From Escherichia phage ECD7, in sequence record NC_041936.1: a stretch of DNA of 64,000 bases; one strand, given 5' to 3'. The first letter of the stretch is position 1. Each line of letters begins with the position of its first letter. The position numbers and the translations under genes were made by a program. The notes beneath the pieces are model-generated. The model saw only the letters and a list, made by a program, of their open reading frames with translations, was not told the DNA's origin and made no database searches. Positions 41,339-47,635 of this stretch are shown here, piece after piece.

Positions 41339-43582
41339 TTACAGCTTGCAAGATGAGCACTCGCTAGCGTCTTCCGTACCATCAGCACCATCACGCACGT
41401 TAGCGTAATACAGTGTCTTGAGGCCGTAATATTGAGCAAACAACATATCATCTAATACATCAGCAATATCGACTTTACCAGTCTTATAAGTGCTTGGATC
41501 GTAGGATGTGTTGGAACTAATCGCCTGATCTACAAACTTCTGCATGATCGCTGCCAGTGTCAGATAAGGCTTGTTACCTTTCTTGATCAGTGTCCAAAGC
41601 AGGTCAATAACATCAGCATTATTCTCTACGTTCGGAATAACCTGATTAAATTGCCCTTCTTTCGATCCTTTAACCGATACAATCCCGCGAGGCGGTTCAA
41701 TACCGTTTGTGCTGTTAGACACCTGAGAGGACGACTCACAAGGCATCAGCGCCGAAAGCGTACTGTTACGAATGCCATATTTTTTCAGGTCTTCGCGAAG
41801 TTCTTCCCAATCCATCTCATACACAGGATCAACCAGTTCATCTACTGTCTTTTTGTACCAGTCGATAGGCAGTTCACCGCGACCATAACGTGTTTCGTGC
41901 ATCAGTTCGCAAGCACCCTTCTCTTTAGCCAGTTGTACACTAGCCTTAATCAGAGCATATTGCAAGCGTTCAAACGTTTTATGCGTAAACTCGTTAGCGT
42001 CTTCATATGTGAAGAAATTATCCGCCAGATATGATGCAAAGTTAGTCACACCAACACCCAGAGAGCGACGTTTTTTGGCTGTCAGAGCTTGTTCTACAGG
42101 ATAATCCTGGTAATCTAACAGGTTGTCAAGTGCACGCACCATAACCATAGCAATGCGTTCTACTTCTTCCATATTTTCGATATCAAAGTTTCCTAAAACA
42201 TATGCTGCCAAAGTACATAGGCTGATCTCTGAATCATCACGACCCATCGGTTTTGTTGGCAGAGCAATTTCACAACACAGGTTAGATTGTTTAATCGGTG
42301 CTACATTACGAATAAACGCCCCGTGATTGTTCATGTTGTCTGTGAACGCTGGATAGATTCGACCAGTGTTAAAACGTTCAATTGCCACCGCTAAAAACAG
42401 GTCTTCGGCTTTAACACGAGTTTTACGAACACTCGGATCTTTTTCCAGTTTTTCGTAAAGCTGGCGGAAACCTTCCTCATCTCGGAAGTACAGATCCCAC
42501 AACAAGCCACCTGCAACATCTGGACTAAACAGAGTAATGTAATCCCGTTTGAGGAATCGCTCTACCATCAGGTTATTAATCTGTACGCCGTAATCAAGAT
42601 GACGAATGCGGTTATCTTCTACCCCTTTGTTGTTCTTCAACACAATCAGACTTTCAAACTCTAAATGCCACATTGGGTAATAGAGAGTCGCCGCCCCGCC
42701 ACGAATACCGCCTTGTGAACATGACTTAACGGCAGTCTGAAAATGTTTCCAGAATGGGATAACGCCAGTATGACGAACTTCACCATGCCCGATCTTAGAT
42801 CCTTCCGCACGAATCATGCCAGCGTTGATACCGATGCCAGCACGCTTGCTAATATACTTGATGATTGCATTTGCGGTTTCATTAATACCCTGCAATGAAT
42901 CATCAGATTCGATCACCACACACGAACTAAATTGGCGTGTTGGGGTACGCACACCAGCCATAATCGGAGTAGGCAGAGAAATTTGCTTATTAGCAACAGC
43001 ATTATAAAAATCAATCACATGTTCAAGTCGATTTTCTGTCTCTTCTTGATGTAAGCACATACCGATCAGCATATACGCAAATTGCGGTGTTTCAATGATT
43101 TTCTTAGTGCTGCGATCCTGAACAAGATATTTCTCTTTTAACTGCATCGCACCAGCATAGGTCATTTTAAAATCAAGTTTATGGTCGATGAATTTCTCCA
43201 GATATTCCACTTCTTCACGGGAATACTTTTGCAGAATTTCGCGATCATATTTTCCGGTTGCAATATTACGCTCAATATGGCTATAAAAATCAATAGGTTG
43301 GAATTGACCGTATACTGATTTACGAAGCGCGAACATTGCAAGGTTACTTGCTACATATTGATAATCAGGTGTTTCTACAGTAATGTTATCTGCGGCGACC
43401 TTAATCAATACTTTCTGGATATCATTGGTAGACATACCTTCTGTCAGAAGTGGTTCAACCATATCAAATAATTCATATGGGTCAACGTTATGACCTTCGG
43501 CTGCCGCTTCCAGAATTTTCATTACTTTTTCTTTTTCAAACGGAACAGTCAGACCGGAAGACTTAACAACATTTTTAATCAT
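41339..43582 (-). CDS. nrdA: ribonucleotide reductase large subunit
   Basis: 747 aa; ATP-cone N-terminus; catalytic region NLCCEIALP; C-terminal CSSCKL-type redox tail. Confidence 0.9.
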   Translation of the reverse strand: MIKNVVKSSGLTVPFEKEKVMKILEAAAEGHNVDPYELFDMVEPLLTEGMSTNDIQKVLIKVAADNITVETPDYQYVASNLAMFALRKSVYGQFQPIDFYSHIERNIATGKYDREILQKYSREEVEYLEKFIDHKLDFKMTYAGAMQLKEKYLVQDRSTKKIIETPQFAYMLIGMCLHQEETENRLEHVIDFYNAVANKQISLPTPIMAGVRTPTRQFSSCVVIESDDSLQGINETANAIIKYISKRAGIGINAGMIRAEGSKIGHGEVRHTGVIPFWKHFQTAVKSCSQGGIRGGAATLYYPMWHLEFESLIVLKNNKGVEDNRIRHLDYGVQINNLMVERFLKRDYITLFSPDVAGGLLWDLYFRDEEGFRQLYEKLEKDPSVRKTRVKAEDLFLAVAIERFNTGRIYPAFTDNMNNHGAFIRNVAPIKQSNLCCEIALPTKPMGRDDSEISLCTLAAYVLGNFDIENMEEVERIAMVMVRALDNLLDYQDYPVEQALTAKKRRSLGVGVTNFASYLADNFFTYEDANEFTHKTFERLQYALIKASVQLAKEKGACELMHETRYGRGELPIDWYKKTVDELVDPVYEMDWEELREDLKKYGIRNSTLSALMPCESSSQVSNSTNGIEPPRGIVSVKGSKEGQFNQVIPNVENNADVIDLLWTLIKKGNKPYLTLAAIMQKFVDQAISSNTSYDPSTYKTGKVDIADVLDDMLFAQYYGLKTLYYANVRDGADGTEDASECSSCKL

Positions 43583-43649
43583 ATTACCTCACTTCATATT
43601 TTAGCAGGAACAAGTTTATCCTCCATAACGGGGCTTTCGCCCCCTTTGT

Positions 43650-44882
43650 TTATACTGCCATTTGAGCGGTGATCGCTGGATGGCTTTGATAGTTGTGAAT
43701 TTTAAAGTCTTTCGGAGTCTTTGTCAATACCTCATCTAAAGATTTAAATTCCGGCAACTCAATTGTTGGTTTATCAAACGGAACACGGTTTAACTGTTCC
43801 ATAACTTGATCAAAATGGTTTTTGTAAATGTGAGTATCTCCGCCGGAGAAAATCAGTTCACCAACTTCAAGGTCGCACATTTTCGCTATGATGTGAGTTA
43901 ACAGCGCATAGCTGGCGACGTTAAAGGGCAAGCCCAAAAAGCTGTCTACGCTTCTCTGAAACCACATGCAAGATAGTTTACCTTCATTGACGTAGAATTG
44001 CACGAAAGGATGACATACACCTAATACAGCATTATGTGTTCCTTGTACGTTCCATGAGTCAATAATGATCCGGCGATCCGTTGGATTGTTTTTAATTTGT
44101 TCAATCACGTTTTGTAACTGGTCTTCCCAAATCTTCGGGCGATAGACATATTCTTCATCGTCTTTAGTGCTCGATGTGTCTACGTCCATACTAGCAAAGA
44201 TCGTGGTATCTGGTGCTAAAATATCCCCACCCAGATAATCACTATCAAGCAGATAACCGAAATAACCATCATCTACCCATTCCTGGAATCCCCACAAGCA
44301 ATATGCATCATTAACAAAATTAGATTGAGTCTTCCAGTGGTCTGCTACTAAGAATAGATTATATTCAGAATCAAACTCTTCATAACGCATACCACGCCAG
44401 ATAGCACATAAACGGTCTTCTGTTTCATTGGTTGGCGTAAAGTCTTCTACCCACGGGTGCTTAAATGTATGTGTATATTTGCTCTTAACGCGCTTAATTT
44501 TGACTTCCCCGTGTGGATGAATCGGTTTGCGTCGCCACGCCATACCATACATATTGCCAACATTATAGCCGTTGAATCGTAGCGGATTCTTTTCTTTCAT
44601 ATCAAGACAGTTGCCGCGCCAAATGTCGAAGGCTTCTTCGTCAAACCGACCGCGTGTAATTTCCTGTAAGCGACGGCGGTCAAGTGATCCCTCCATAAAC
44701 CATAGCAACTCGCCAATTACAGAGGCTGTAGCCATCTTTTTAGTGGTCAGTAATGGGAAACCCTTGCTTAAATCAATTCGCATCTCTGCGCCGAATTTAG
44801 AGAGCGTACCTACCCCCGTGCGGTCTTCACGAGGCCAGCCATTATCAAGAACATCACGCAACAGTTTCAAATATTCTTTCAT
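43650..44882 (-). CDS. td: thymidylate synthase with large internal insertion
   Basis: DRTGVGT, LLWF, RRIIIDSWN, VCHPF, QRSVDSFLGLPFNVASYALLTH and C-terminus PKDF..NY.SHP....MAV match TS/T4 Td; about 120 extra residues between MAWRRK and DQLQN. Confidence 0.85.
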   Translation of the reverse strand: MKEYLKLLRDVLDNGWPREDRTGVGTLSKFGAEMRIDLSKGFPLLTTKKMATASVIGELLWFMEGSLDRRRLQEITRGRFDEEAFDIWRGNCLDMKEKNPLRFNGYNVGNMYGMAWRRKPIHPHGEVKIKRVKSKYTHTFKHPWVEDFTPTNETEDRLCAIWRGMRYEEFDSEYNLFLVADHWKTQSNFVNDAYCLWGFQEWVDDGYFGYLLDSDYLGGDILAPDTTIFASMDVDTSSTKDDEEYVYRPKIWEDQLQNVIEQIKNNPTDRRIIIDSWNVQGTHNAVLGVCHPFVQFYVNEGKLSCMWFQRSVDSFLGLPFNVASYALLTHIIAKMCDLEVGELIFSGGDTHIYKNHFDQVMEQLNRVPFDKPTIELPEFKSLDEVLTKTPKDFKIHNYQSHPAITAQMAV

Positions 44883-45123
44883 CCCACATCACCTTTTTCT
44901 TGTTGATTGCTTTCTTACGCAGTTTTGCTACTGTCTCGTCAATATTGATAAAGACAACGCCCGGATCGAATACAGTAACAGGTCTTGAAATATCGCTATT
45001 TTCCTGTACTGGAAGCCATGATGCTTTAGCTTCATCATAGAGATATTGTAAACCGTAATAATCTACGGCTACTGCGTAGTTTTCACTGGTAGCCGTCCAT
45101 AATTGAATAATACCGACTTTCAT
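44854..45123 (-). CDS. hypothetical protein (89 aa)
   Basis: ORF between frd and td; start at internal Met. Confidence 0.4.
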   Translation of the reverse strand: MKVGIIQLWTATSENYAVAVDYYGLQYLYDEAKASWLPVQENSDISRPVTVFDPGVVFINIDETVAKLRKKAINKKKVMWDERIFETVA

Positions 45124-45216
45124 TATTGTTCCCGTCCGCAATGTAAACACCGACTACCAGCAAACATCAAAGATTCACCACAATGTTTGCACTCATAATC
45201 TGTCAGAATTTTCATG

Positions 45217-45798
45217 TTACGCCTTCTTACGTTCTAAAATTTGTTCGCTGATCAGGTAATTATCAAGGAAGTAATTATGTTCTTCTTTTGTTGCAAAGTC
45301 AAAATATAATTCCTGAATCATTTCCTTAGAGATACCAACATCATATTCAAATGGATCGTTGACCCCTGAACGTTGAACATACGTTAACACAATACGGTCC
45401 GCAAAGTCAACTGCTTTTTCAATCAGGGAAGGTCCACCGATAACACTTACCAAACCTTGCGTTTTCTCCAGGACTTTTAACAGATCCTTTAATTCGTCAT
45501 CATTAGTAATTGCGGTATACACATCTGGTTGGTCGCCGTTTTTTGTTTTCGGTTCTGGCTTGCTGGTATCGGTGCTAACAACCACATTCAAACGTCCCCA
45601 AAGTGCTTTAGGCAGACTTTCAAAGGTGTTACGTCCCATTACTACCGCAGCAAAATCAACATCGCCAATAGTGCGGATTTTAAAGTTTTCCATATCCTTT
45701 TTGATTGGACGATCCCACGGTAAACCGCCTTTAAAACCAAACGCCCAATTTTCATCTGACATTTTAGTGTTGCCAATCGCAAATACACATTGAATCAT
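45217..45798 (-). CDS. frd: dihydrofolate reductase
   Basis: FGFKGGLPW...MGRNTFESLP DHFR-like N-terminal motifs; position upstream of td as in T4. Confidence 0.8.
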   Translation of the reverse strand: MIQCVFAIGNTKMSDENWAFGFKGGLPWDRPIKKDMENFKIRTIGDVDFAAVVMGRNTFESLPKALWGRLNVVVSTDTSKPEPKTKNGDQPDVYTAITNDDELKDLLKVLEKTQGLVSVIGGPSLIEKAVDFADRIVLTYVQRSGVNDPFEYDVGISKEMIQELYFDFATKEEHNYFLDNYLISEQILERKKA

Positions 45799-45812
45799 AA
45801 TATAATCTCCTA

Positions 45813-46142
45813 TCAAATCAGTTTGAAATAGTTGTCTTGCACGTTTTCTTCTGTGATTGCCGTTTTAAATTCTTGACCGTTATCCGGTGTTATGACATAG
45901 CGGTCTGAATAATCACGCCATCTTTTCAGCATACTGACGCCAACATTAACACCATTTTCCCAGAAACGGAAGGTAATCATTTTTGTTTCATATCGGTAAT
46001 CACTTTGAATCAAGCTACCATCACCGCGACGTGATTCATAAACCGTAATACATTCACGGTTAGCGGCTTTAAGGCATTCTTCAATAGTGCCACACGAGAC
46101 AATTTCTGTTGAGTCATCTACGATTTGTTCTACAGTCCACAT
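45813..46142 (-). CDS. hypothetical protein (109 aa)
   Basis: ORF behind the promoter at 46174-46201. Confidence 0.45.
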   Translation of the reverse strand: MWTVEQIVDDSTEIVSCGTIEECLKAANRECITVYESRRGDGSLIQSDYRYETKMITFRFWENGVNVGVSMLKRWRDYSDRYVITPDNGQEFKTAITEENVQDNYFKLI

Positions 46143-46173: not shown

Positions 46174-46201
46174 ATTATACATCATCTGTATTCGGTGTCA
46201 A
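46174..46201 (-). promoter_or_regulatory. sigma70-like promoter
   Basis: minus TTGACA - 16 nt - TATAAT. Confidence 0.5.
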
Positions 46202-46527
46202 CCTTTTTGTTCCATGAAAAGCGGTGCTGTTTCTTCTTTCAGTTTAATAACTAGCGCGGAAACTTCATCAAGAAAATCTTTTTCCATATGAGCAAGCATT
46301 GATTTAGAATCTTTGATGACTTTCAAAGAATATTCACTTAGATTTCCTTTTCCTAACAATAATGCAGGATACACACTATGTGGGATCTCGATTTCATGAT
46401 ATTCGCTCATAGTATAATATTTGTGAATTTTTAAATCTATATTTCTTCGTTGTACGTCTACATCAGCAATGACATACAGAAGTTCAATTTTATCACTTTT
46501 CTGGGAAAGGGTAGCATTCAAAAACAT
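46198..46527 (-). CDS. hypothetical protein (109 aa)
   Basis: ORF behind the promoter at 46557-46584. Confidence 0.45.
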   Translation of the reverse strand: MFLNATLSQKSDKIELLYVIADVDVQRRNIDLKIHKYYTMSEYHEIEIPHSVYPALLLGKGNLSEYSLKVIKDSKSMLAHMEKDFLDEVSALVIKLKEETAPLFMEQKG

Positions 46528-46556
46528 TGTTAATCCTCCGTTGTTTCGATGCTTGT

Positions 46557-46584
46557 ATTATACAACCTCATCTCAGCATGTCAA
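46557..46584 (-). promoter_or_regulatory. sigma70-like promoter
   Basis: minus TTGACA - 16 nt - TATAAT. Confidence 0.5.
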
Positions 46585-46610
46585 CACCTTTTTCATAAAA
46601 TTTTAGGCAA

Positions 46611-46636
46611 TAAAAAAGCCTCCCCGAAGGGAGGCT
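46611..46636 (-). terminator. rho-independent terminator downstream of gene 32
   Basis: AGCCTCCC-TTCG-GGGAGGCT hairpin followed by a U-run on minus. Confidence 0.7.
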
Positions 46637-46646
46637 GTAAAATTCA

Positions 46647-47593
46647 TTACATCGCTAACAGAGAGTCCAGGTCATCCAGATCAGAAGCGGAGGAAGTACC
46701 GCCACCCAGGTCCAGAGATGCCATCAGATCATCAGCGGAAGAATCTGACGCTGTGCTAGTTGCGGTAGTACCAGCGTCGAATGCATTCATCTGTGCATCG
46801 AAATCATCAAGCTGGCTGTTAATCGCTGCCGCAGCACCAGAAGCCGCAGTACCAGCTACCAGCTTACGCCTTTAACTTTCTTAAATTTAGCATCCAGTTC
46901 CTCGAAAGATTTAAACTGGTCTTTTGCTACGATAACATCAATATCTACCATGTTTTCGAACAGATATTTCTGGAATGCTTCATCTTCGATGTTCGGAATC
47001 GCTGATTGCTGCATGAAACGTGAATCATCGTAGTTCAGGAATTTATCTACTTTCTTAGCTTTCAGAAGGAAGTTAGCGCCTTCGAACGGACATACGATGT
47101 TTACAGGTTTTTCGCCCAATTCCGTGTTTACGTTGCTCATTGCCAGAATCTTGTCATAAATTTTCTTACCGAAGCGGAATTTAAATACTTTACCTTCGTT
47201 TTCCGGCGCTTTCGGATCTTTCATGACCAGAATGTTTGCGAAGTAAGAAGATTTACGCTTAACATCTTGATATTCTTTATTGTTGGTGTTGTACAGGTCA
47301 TTTTCGCTAATGTATTTGCACACAGGGCAAGAATCAAAATCACCGTGGGTGCTAGGGCAGTTTTCCCAATAATACTTACCATTTACTTTGAAAGAATGGT
47401 TTACAAGGTTGATGATCGGTAAACCGTCTTCGGTGCGTGCCGGAAGAAAACGAATCACCGCTTCACCGTTACCCGCCGCGTCAGTTTTAATCTTCCACTC
47501 TTTCGGATCTTCTTTGGAGAAGCCGTTGCTACCTTTCAGTGCTGCCAGTTGAGCTTGCAGTTTGGAAGAATCTTGACGACGAAAAATGTTCAT
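46647..47593 (-). CDS. 32: ssDNA-binding protein gp32; reading frame interrupted near 46856-46871 (apparent frameshift)
   Basis: N-terminal/core part (47593-46856) matches recalled T4 gp32 ([53 protein letters not shown]); the acidic C-terminal tail is encoded in the -1 frame down to 46647; start placed at the second Met with AAAGAGG RBS. Confidence 0.8.
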
Positions 47594-47635
47594 AATTATA
47601 CCTCTTTTATACATTAACTATTAATTTGCTAGATT

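What the first reader, a model, noticed from the sequence alone, without database searches (positions are those of the whole stretch)
43650..44882. Thymidylate synthase carrying a ~120 aa insertion
The td product is 410 aa, against 264 aa for E. coli ThyA and 286 aa for T4 Td. All catalytic motifs and the T4-like C-terminus are present. About 120 extra residues (roughly KPIHPHGEVKIK...EEYVYRPKIW) sit between the MAWRRK and DQLQN segments, in the variable small-domain loop. The insert has no intein boundary residues and no stop codons, so it is an in-frame insertion domain of unknown function rather than an intron or intein.
Basis: partly seen in the sequence, partly recalled or inferred. Interest (0 to 1): 0.45.

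Follow-up and report, generated by a model that had tools for sequence, protein, structure and literature searches.

The report
Homing-endonuclease relic embedded in thymidylate synthase
The extra 135 residues in this phage's thymidylate synthase are a decayed copy of a homing-endonuclease-type module that invades the td gene in frame at one fixed surface loop, with no intron or intein, and that is still moving between other phages.

Summary
A 135-aa insert (aa 118-252) sits between the YG..WR and DQ motifs, where the nearest insert-less relatives have 5 residues.

The window is a Krischvirus (RB49-like), and all ~57 relatives share the insert. It is neither an intein nor an intron. It folds alone (pLDDT 84).

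It is homologous to larger inserts (up to ~260 aa) at the same site in TS of unrelated phages. Those match PHROG "HNH endonuclease" families (E 1e-33 to 1e-39). Members of these families are also free-standing genes beside td or RNR, and ORFs inside published group I introns.

In jumbo phages, filled and empty td alleles coexist within a genus. The insert travels with about 30 upstream and 93 downstream td codons, which is a co-conversion signature of homing.

The window's copy is the shortest form. It has lost the N-terminal domain, the NUMOD-like helix-turn-helix tail and nearly all family-invariant polar residues. It is still under purifying selection (omega 0.15-0.35, against 0.01-0.08 in the core).

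Verdict: a fixed, probably inactive relic of a splicing-free, in-frame homing element. Nuclease chemistry is unproven.

The parts
43650..44882 (-). td gene: ThyA-type thymidylate synthase, 410 aa, carrying the insert
   Evidence: ORF. PF00303 E 1e-84 in two blocks. PDB ThyA hits E 1e-68. Catalytic residues mapped.
44532..44882 (-). TS N-terminal core, aa 1-117, ending ...GNMYGMAWR
   Evidence: Aligns to E. coli ThyA 1-99. omega 0.00-0.07 among Krischvirus.
44127..44531 (-). In-frame insert, aa 118-252 (RKPIHPHGEV...YVYRPKIW): a degenerate homing-endonuclease-type module
   Evidence: Absent from insert-less TS. tblastn and phmmer hit only other TS inserts at the same site, with weaker hits to free-standing 'HNH endonuclease' genes. 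AF2 pLDDT 84.3 when folded alone. omega 0.15-0.35.
44493..44507 (-). N-terminal connecting beta-strand EVKIK (aa 126-130)
   Evidence: Predicted strand E9-13 in model m7d1100333a80.
44190..44426 (-). Core of the module (aa 153-231): helix with the W..M motif, V..W..F.NF, then two strands LLDSD / APDTTIFAS
   Evidence: pLDDT 90-98. Aligns to the family core W..M..RCY...V..W..F.NF...LDKD...YSP.TC.F.
44358..44369 (-). SEYN: a 4-codon in-frame indel, polymorphic among Krischvirus; it lies where the family has the RCY...Y.nYG loop
   Evidence: Present in the window, RB49, SSG23 and 011D4. Absent in JSE, JK32, Phi1 and G2248.
44271..44309 (-). DAYCLWGFQEWVD (aa 192-204): the most conserved segment of the short-insert clade
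   Evidence: Nearly invariant across six TS proteins whose inserts are otherwise 38-53% identical. Shared in looser form (L.GFQE.VD) with long inserts of Gram-negative phages but not with free-standing members.
44190..44252 (-). Degenerate beta-beta(-alpha) segment LLDSDYLGGDILAPDTTIFAS (aa 211-231), corresponding to the family's LDKD...YSP.TC.F...N
   Evidence: Family near-invariant D96-K97-D98, Y105-S106 and T109(-C). The window has D-S-D, L-A and T-T, and no helix follows.
44136..44150 (-). C-terminal connecting beta-strand YVYRP (aa 245-249); the junction motif Y.YRPKI(W/Y) is shared by TS inserts
   Evidence: Strand E128-132. Conserved in phiKp21, D69 and P0004-P0012. Resembles the C-terminus of free-standing P0031...YAYRYKLLED.
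43650..44126 (-). TS C-terminal core, aa 253-410 plus the stop codon, starting EDQLQNVIEQIKNNP
   Evidence: Aligns to E. coli ThyA 110-264. In JSE and 011D4, recombinant tracts begin in the first window after the insert's 3' junction.

Best explanation
The insert is a fixed, degenerate relic of a homing-endonuclease-type mobile module that entered td in frame. It sits at the tip of the surface loop between the YG.QWR helix and the DQ helix of thymidylate synthase. The module is compact and self-folding, and strands at its two ends leave and re-enter the loop. The host enzyme therefore tolerates it as a domain insertion, and no RNA or protein splicing is needed. In other phages (Alcyoneusvirus, Asteriusvirus, Vibrio, Bacillus and Tenacibaculum phages) the same element is 170-260 aa. 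There it keeps an N-terminal beta-rich segment, all family-invariant residues and an I-HmuI-type NUMOD-like helix-turn-helix tail, and it still spreads between td alleles by gene conversion that drags flanking td codons with it. In the Krischvirus lineage the element is present in every sequenced member. It has been trimmed to 127-135 aa and has lost the DNA-binding tail and the invariant polar residues, so it most likely no longer cuts DNA. What remains is kept under moderate purifying selection, most simply because a misfolding insert would damage TS. The enzyme itself retains every catalytic residue and presumably still makes dTMP. SHOWN: the homology chain, autonomous folding, the fixed site, the absence of intron and intein signatures, filled/empty polymorphism with co-converted flanks in other phages, the loss of hallmark residues, and the omega values. 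INFERRED: that the module is the nuclease, that homing is self-driven, that the window's copy is inactive, and that TS is active.
Confidence: 0.7

Rival explanations
1. Exapted domain: the origin is the same, but in Krischvirus the trimmed module has acquired a host-beneficial role. Examples would be tethering Td to DNA, to gp32, or to the dNTP-synthetase/replication complex, or regulating TS. It would be maintained for that role rather than merely tolerated.
For: omega is 0.15-0.35, well below 1. The insert is retained in all 57 or more Krischvirus records and in deeper relatives at 62-67% core identity. DAYCLWGFQEWVD and APDT.IF are as conserved as the enzyme core, and this motif is specific to TS-embedded copies.
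Against: Constraint is 5-10 times weaker than in the core. All family-invariant polar residues and both flanking DNA-binding parts are lost. In-frame indels are tolerated. Conservation of hydrophobic scaffold residues is what simple folding constraint predicts. There is no direct evidence of any partner.
Confidence: 0.2
2. Still-active element: the Krischvirus insert remains a working site-specific endonuclease or nickase acting on related td alleles.
For: Two recombinant tracts of different length (011D4 to about aa 300, JSE to about aa 360) both begin in the first 15-codon window after the insert's 3' junction. Synonymous divergence in the insert is often lower than in the flanking core; for window vs RB49, dS is 0.039 against 0.20. 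This is compatible with repeated gene conversion.
Against: The window has K97->S, Y105/S106->L/A, C110->T and R51->E, has no helix after the second strand, and lacks both the NUMOD tail and the N-terminal domain. No empty Krischvirus allele is known. The tracts could instead reflect crossovers favoured by the conserved insert sequence, or cleavage by another nuclease.
Confidence: 0.06
3. Lineage-specific elaboration of the TS small domain, with no mobile-element origin.
For: TS tolerates length variation in this peripheral region. The 'empty' RaK2 and JNE01 alleles carry their own unrelated ~38-aa loop at the same site. From my own knowledge, eukaryotic TS has a short insert between WR and DQ.
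Against: There is significant homology to free-standing and intron-encoded endonuclease-family proteins. Filled/empty polymorphism with cassette-like flanks is seen. The module occurs at the same site in TS cores that are highly divergent from one another.
Confidence: 0.02
4. An intein (possibly a mini-intein) or a translated group I intron that is removed from the mature product.
For: It is an in-frame, stop-free insertion in a conserved motif of a nucleotide-metabolism gene, which is typical intein or intron territory. T4 td has an intron, and ThyX genes of actinophages have inteins.
Against: There are no Hint, intein or LAGLIDADG Pfam hits in any version. Junction residues are R/K/Y/Q/M...W/Y-E/I-D, with no conserved C/S/T and no HN. 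There are no Rfam intron matches. Codon-level purifying selection and in-frame indels are observed.
Confidence: 0.02

Closest known systems
ShiLan domain and related 'hidden HNH' insertion elements in phage DNA methylases (Arsenault, Gosselin & Gogarten 2025, PMC11855218)
   Same: Both are stop-free, in-frame insertions in a phage enzyme. Neither is an intron or an intein. Both have a homing-like distribution and are predicted to loop out without destroying the host enzyme.
   Different: In ShiLan the HNH endonuclease is encoded in an alternative reading frame inside the insertion. Here the endonuclease-family module is read in the host frame and becomes an internal domain of TS, and no alternative-frame ORF exists. 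The host gene, the site and the endonuclease family all differ.
phrog_2081 / phrog_953 / phrog_374 'HNH endonuclease' proteins: intron-encoded ORFs in Bastillevirinae DNA polymerase introns (PMC11878797) and free-standing phage genes such as Escherichia phage alia gp039
   Same: They share the core module (W..M..RCY...V..W..F.NF...LDKD...YSP.TC.F...N). In the long TS inserts they also share the N-terminal GVGY segment and the I-HmuI NUMOD-like tail.
   Different: Those are separate polypeptides, either inside introns or in intergenic slots. In td the module is fused on both sides to the host enzyme. The window's copy lacks the hallmark residues and the accessory domains.
Free-standing homing endonucleases of T4-type phages (Seg, Mob; mobE/I-TevIII next to nrdB; Edgell et al. 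2010, PMC2988022; PMC2790892)
   Same: Both target conserved nucleotide-metabolism genes, both spread by double-strand-break repair with co-conversion of flanking markers, and both degenerate after fixation. Free-standing P0031 sits next to td in just this manner.
   Different: Seg and Mob genes lie between genes or split them. They are GIY-YIG or canonical HNH enzymes. They are not translated as part of the target protein.
Inteins with nested homing endonucleases
   Same: Both are in-frame selfish insertions at conserved sites of conserved proteins. In both the endonuclease is translated within the host polypeptide, and both follow a cycle of invasion, fixation, decay and loss.
   Different: There is no Hint splicing domain and there are no splice-junction residues, so the insert stays in the mature protein.
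PacI restriction endonuclease (PDB 3m7k), His-Me finger group 20
   Different: The match is weak and there is no sequence similarity. The module lacks the Zn-binding Cys clusters of PacI. Equivalence of the Tyr is an inference that was not tested.

Membership tests
ThyA-type thymidylate synthase (PF00303 / TIGR03284) | Profile match above the curated cut-off | tested here: met
   PF00303 scores 284 bits (cut-off 24.3), in two blocks. TIGR03284 scores 283 bits (cut-off 108).
ThyA-type thymidylate synthase (PF00303 / TIGR03284) | Catalytic Cys nucleophile and the dUMP/folate-binding residues (Ec R21, E58, Y94, R126, R127, C146, H147, R166, S167, D169, N177, H207, Y209) | tested here: met
   All are conserved in the alignment.
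ThyA-type thymidylate synthase (PF00303 / TIGR03284) | Enzymatic activity with the insert in place | not testable with these tools
   Inferred from residue conservation and strong purifying selection on the core (omega 0.01-0.08).
Intein | Hint splicing domain (blocks A, B, F, G) | tested here: not met
   No Hint, Intein_splicing or LAGLIDADG Pfam hit in the window Td, in the isolated insert or in four larger inserts.
Intein | C/S/T as the first intein residue, and a terminal HN followed by C/S/T | tested here: not met
   The junctions read WR|R/K/Y/Q/M... and ...RPKI(W/Y)(E/I)|DQ across 14 TS inserts.
Group I / II intron | Match to the intron covariance models | tested here: not met
   No intron family matches at E <= 1 in window 43400-45200 or in six loci with long inserts.
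Homing-endonuclease-associated module family (phrog_2081/953/374; no Pfam or NCBIfam model) | Significant sequence similarity to family members | tested here: met
   Window insert vs phiKp_21 insert is E 1e-11 and vs D69 is 3e-6. Other TS inserts score 3e-10 to 4e-4 in 1.84e9 proteins. Those inserts hit phrog_2081 at 1e-33 to 1e-39. The window insert directly vs phrog_2081 gives only E 0.46.
Homing-endonuclease-associated module family (phrog_2081/953/374; no Pfam or NCBIfam model) | Family near-invariant residues R51, D96-K97-D98, Y105-S106, T109-C110 and the downstream Asn | tested here: not met
   The window has E51, D-S-D, L-A, T-T and no Asn-bearing helix. It is therefore a degenerate member by descent, not an intact one.
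Homing-endonuclease-associated module family (phrog_2081/953/374; no Pfam or NCBIfam model) | Accessory DNA-binding domain (NUMOD-like HTH, AP2 or Zn-ribbon repeats) | tested here: not met
   Absent from the window's insert. Present in long TS inserts (PF22083 in P0032 and P0028) and in free-standing members.
HNH / His-Me finger nuclease superfamily | beta-beta-alpha-metal fold | tested here: inconclusive
HNH / His-Me finger nuclease superfamily | Catalytic His at the end of the first strand (or a documented substitute) | tested here: not met
   The family has Lys and the window has Ser. A PacI-like Tyr substitute is conceivable for the family but is untested.
HNH / His-Me finger nuclease superfamily | Match to an HNH sequence model | tested here: not met
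   There is no HNH Pfam or NCBIfam hit and no PDB sequence hit with the family profile.
Mobile homing element (behavioural definition) | Filled and empty alleles among close relatives, at one precise site | tested here: met
   Met for the element family: phiKp_21, KP13-7 and UE-S1 are filled, while RaK2, K64-1, Muenster and JNE01 are empty. Not met within Krischvirus, where all are filled.
Mobile homing element (behavioural definition) | Co-conversion of flanking host sequence | tested here: met
   TS segments flanking the insert are 93-96% identical between filled alleles of different genera, but 32-55% identical between filled and empty alleles of the same genus.
Mobile homing element (behavioural definition) | Element-encoded site-specific cleavage of the empty allele | not testable with these tools
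   This needs biochemistry or phage crosses.
ShiLan-type insertion element | Endonuclease encoded in an alternative frame within the in-frame insertion | tested here: not met
   No alternative-frame ORF exceeds 41 aa in the window insert, or 78 aa (antisense) in the phiKp_21 and Kioshi inserts.

The most novel reading that the evidence does not exclude
The td inserts define a class of splicing-free homing elements in which the endonuclease is expressed as an internal domain of the very enzyme whose gene it invades. The intact versions (phiKp_21, UE-S1, D69, Kioshi and others) would be bifunctional TS-endonuclease chimeras that cut empty td alleles and copy themselves in, with no intron or intein. 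Their nuclease would be an uncharacterised His-less, PacI-like variant of the His-Me finger. The Krischvirus copy would be the end stage of that life cycle, possibly exapted.
Probability: 0.45. Interest if true: 0.8.

Novelty: new variant of a known kind. Interest (0 to 1): 0.6.

Why it matters
Homing endonuclease genes are thought to persist inside essential genes only by hiding in self-splicing introns or inteins, or by sitting between genes. A family that inserts in frame into a surface loop of thymidylate synthase and simply stays in the protein would be a third way. It would bear on how inteins and intron-HEG partnerships arose, and on how much insertion a textbook enzyme can absorb. It also gives a natural, pre-validated permissive site in ThyA for domain-insertion engineering. 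It points to a large phage protein family labelled 'HNH endonuclease' whose catalytic domain no curated library recognises. For annotation it explains why insert-bearing td genes are variously called 'hypothetical protein' (phiKp_21, ph0011) or 'HNH endonuclease' (Vibrio D69, Tenacibaculum PTm1). For this window specifically, the result is more modest: an old, fixed relic in a well-known phage group (RB49, sequenced about 2003) that nobody appears to have commented on.

Tried and rejected
- Single-sequence AF2 of the whole Td gave a useless model (pLDDT 36), so no full-length geometry was obtained.
- The word-index homology search with the insert alone found nothing. The exhaustive search and tblastn were needed instead.
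- Pfam, NCBIfam and PDB sequence searches of the insert and of the family profile were all negative.
- The afdb50 fold library was unavailable.
- F-CphI was considered as a characterised relative because of a cyanophage fold hit. It was rejected because it is an Endo VII-type enzyme with DHDH and CxxC motifs.
- I tested whether alia gp039 splits a DNA polymerase gene. Pfam of the neighbouring genes did not support this.
- The intein reading was rejected.
- The intron reading was rejected.
- A hidden out-of-frame nuclease ORF, as in ShiLan, was rejected.
- Hits P0002 and P0003 in the exhaustive search are low-complexity repeat artefacts.
- Literature searches for RB49 td, for TS with HNH/NUMOD, and for jumbo phages found no description of this insert. 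The library is incomplete, so absence there is not proof of novelty.

Full report
THE OBSERVATION. The ORF at 43650-44882 on the minus strand encodes 410 aa. It lies between a DHFR gene (frd, 45217-45816) and the class I RNR large-subunit gene (nrdA, 41339-43582), which is the T4-type order. Pfam PF00303 and solved ThyA sequences match it in two blocks, aa 1-~117 and aa 254-410. Every catalytic and substrate-binding residue of E. coli ThyA is conserved. The window is a Krischvirus. The gene is 99% identical to that of phage Brandy and 97% to RB49, and 57 phage records carry the full-length gene. The extra segment is aa 118-252 (window 44127-44531), so it is 135 residues rather than about 120. 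In T4 Td the residue aligned with window D254 is D120. The closest insert-less TS in the large protein collection (276 aa, 53-56% identical) reads WR-DWRGV-DQ and is colinear with 100% of an insert-deleted query.

WHAT IT IS NOT. It is not an intein. No Hint, intein or LAGLIDADG model matches the window protein, the isolated insert or the larger versions described below. Across 14 examples the junction residues include no conserved Cys/Ser/Thr and no His-Asn. It is not an intron. No Rfam intron model matches the window's td or six related loci. The segment also evolves under codon-level purifying selection, with an in-frame 4-codon indel. Unlike the ShiLan element of phage methylases (PMC11855218), it hides no alternative-frame ORF.

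WHAT IT IS RELATED TO. Curated libraries do not recognise the insert. A tblastn search with the insert alone found all Krischvirus td genes. It also found a 517-aa 'hypothetical protein' of Klebsiella phage phiKp_21 (E 1e-11), a 477-aa 'HNH endonuclease' of Vibrio phage D69 (E 3e-6), and, weakly, a 548-aa 'thymidylate synthase' of Bacillus phage Kioshi. All three are thymidylate synthases interrupted at the same profile position by larger inserts. An exhaustive phmmer search of 1.84 billion representatives returned only further TS proteins of 406-525 aa with inserts at this site; two other hits were repeat artefacts. The larger inserts match PHROG families annotated 'HNH endonuclease': phrog_2081 at E 1e-33 to 1e-39, and also phrog_953, phrog_374 and phrog_3377. 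A profile built from the inserts retrieved 217 proteins. Most are free-standing phage proteins of 190-390 aa. They combine the shared core module with I-HmuI-type NUMOD-like helix-turn-helix domains, AP2 domains or Zn-ribbon repeats (DUF723, DUF4379, HNH_repeat), and contain no recognisable nuclease domain. A published survey lists phrog_2081 ORFs inside nine group I introns of Bastillevirinae DNA polymerase genes, again with only DNA-binding domains detected (PMC11878797).

THE FREE-STANDING COPIES BEHAVE LIKE HOMING ENDONUCLEASE GENES. P0031 (202 aa) lies about 240 bp upstream of an uninterrupted 307-aa td on at least four independent contigs. It is 40-45% identical to the in-frame inserts of three TS proteins and matches the window's Td directly (26% identity, E 6e-6 in a pairwise search). 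Other free-standing members sit beside RNR, DNA polymerase A/ThyX and helicase/ligase/RNR genes.

THE ELEMENT IS MOBILE ELSEWHERE. Among jumbo phages, phiKp_21, KP13-7 (Alcyoneusvirus) and UE-S1 (Asteriusvirus) have a 1554-nt td. RaK2, K64-1, Muenster (Alcyoneusvirus), JNE01 and many others (Asteriusvirus) match both ends of it, but the match spans only 930 nt. Aligning the alleles shows a cassette:
- Filled and empty alleles of one genus are 93-94% identical over the first 87 residues. They are only 32% identical in the 30 TS residues just before the insert and 51-55% in the 93 residues just after it.
- The two filled alleles from different genera are 93% and 96% identical in exactly those segments, and 83% in the insert. 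That is higher than their backbone identity of 84-87%.
- The cassette's TS flanks resemble the window's Td (63-73%) much more than they resemble the empty alleles (36%).
- A second Asteriusvirus, ph0011, carries a different version of the insert (31% identical), which implies separate acquisitions.

Insert-plus-flank transfer at one precise site across genera is the co-conversion signature of homing. No other endonuclease gene lies next to these td genes, so the insert itself is the obvious candidate for the nuclease. That step is inference.

THE WINDOW'S COPY IS A RELIC. Aligning all versions to the family profile gives a graded series. Free-standing genes and long TS inserts keep the GVGY segment, RCY, LDKD, YS..TC, the downstream Asn and the NUMOD-like tail. 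Intermediate inserts (P0006-P0009, P0144) have lost some of these. The window's clade, six clusters of 401-414 aa that are its nearest TS relatives, has lost almost all of them. In the window R51 is E, D-K-D is D-S-D, Y-S is L-A, T-C is T-T, and no helix follows the second strand. The hydrophobic scaffold and the segments DAYCLWGFQEWVD and APDT.IF persist. Among eight Krischvirus genes the insert has omega 0.15-0.35 against 0.01-0.08 for the TS core. In the deeper clade it is 38-53% identical against 62-67% for the core. The insert is thus constrained, but five to ten times less than the enzyme. That fits a domain which must still fold so as not to harm TS. It also leaves room for an acquired function.

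A POSSIBLE TRACE OF PAST ACTIVITY IN KRISCHVIRUS. Relative to RB49, the JSE and 011D4 td genes show 0-3 nucleotide differences per 45 nt through the N-terminal core and most of the insert (one insert window, around the SEYN indel, has 7 in JSE). The count then jumps to 14-16 in the first window after the insert's 3' junction. The divergent tract ends near aa 300 in 011D4 and near aa 360 in JSE. Synonymous divergence is also often lower in the insert than in the core. Both features would fit gene-conversion events anchored at the junction. They could equally reflect crossovers within the conserved insert. I did not resolve this.

COMPARISON WITH WHAT IS KNOWN, AND NOVELTY. The closest conceptual precedent is the ShiLan-type 'hidden HNH' insertion, but there the endonuclease is out of frame. 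The closest relatives by descent are the intron-encoded and free-standing phrog_2081/953 proteins. The closest relatives by life cycle are inteins and the T4 Seg/Mob genes. I found no paper describing an endonuclease-family module embedded in ThyA/Td, and no comment on the RB49 td length; the searchable library is incomplete. I therefore rate this a new variant of a known kind: a homing element that persists as an unspliced, in-frame domain insertion.

VERDICT. For this window the feature is real and explained in origin, and it is probably functionally inert apart from having to fold. The broader family it points to is the more interesting result.

Noticed in passing
window 46209-46529 (ORF 46198..46527, minus strand) compared with RB49 locus L001:1245-2684: RB49 carries a 485-aa 'endonuclease' between gene 32 and frd, with CapR/DUF723/DUF4379 Zn-ribbon repeats and a C-terminal GIY-YIG-like tail by eye. 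The window lacks it and has about 320 nt with an unrelated 109-aa ORF that matches no family. Identity to RB49 drops from 95% on the td side of this point to 82% across gene 32, so a mosaic boundary coincides with a homing-endonuclease-gene presence/absence site about 1.3 kb from td.
   Followed up: partly
window ~46530-46870 (minus strand), 3' end of gene 32 (ORF 46856..47614): The gp32 ORF stops at ...KKVKGVSW* after 252 aa, whereas RB49 gp32 is 322 aa. The acidic C-terminal domain (...[13 protein letters not shown]...[11 protein letters not shown]) continues in another frame. This is an apparent frameshift, either real or a sequencing error.
   Followed up: partly
window 43650-44126 (td, downstream of the insert); loci L006 (JSE) and L011 (011D4): Two Krischvirus td genes carry divergent recombinant tracts of different length, to about aa 300 and about aa 360. 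Both start in the first 15 codons after the insert's 3' junction, a polarity reminiscent of co-conversion tracts.
   Followed up: partly
window 44127-44531 versus the rest of td: Synonymous divergence among Krischvirus is often lower in the insert than in the flanking TS core. For window vs RB49, dS is 0.039 against 0.20 (Sd 3 against 30.5). This is unexpected for the less constrained part of the gene.
   Followed up: no
L017 (RaK2 td) and L020 (JNE01 td): The 'empty' jumbo-phage td alleles are 309 aa and carry their own unrelated loop of about 38 aa (DWVDYKFSSDPNEIQLLKSKGYKVLDYTGSHGVVMHRST) at the same WR/DQ site. The site therefore accepts insertions repeatedly.
   Followed up: no
L016:4001-4780 (P0014) and L016:5169-6863: A 259-aa ORF consists of an insert-like module followed by a TS-helix-like tail (...YRYELSRNQVVELLNNIKK). 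It lies about 400 bp upstream of a 564-aa insert-bearing td and is only 39% identical to that gene's own insert. It looks like a partial second copy of a filled td. The same contig has a subtilase gene with a canonical LAGLIDADG intein.
   Followed up: partly
window 44854-45150 (minus strand): A 98-aa ORF (phrog_16012, unknown function; RB49p236 homologue) overlaps the first 29 nt of td.
   Followed up: no
phage records OZ195729 (Vibrio D69), LC768484 (phiKp_21), OP557969 (ph0011), NC_049340 (Tenacibaculum PTm1): Insert-bearing td genes are inconsistently annotated as 'HNH endonuclease' or 'hypothetical protein' rather than thymidylate synthase, presumably because the insert dominates similarity-based naming.
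   Followed up: partly
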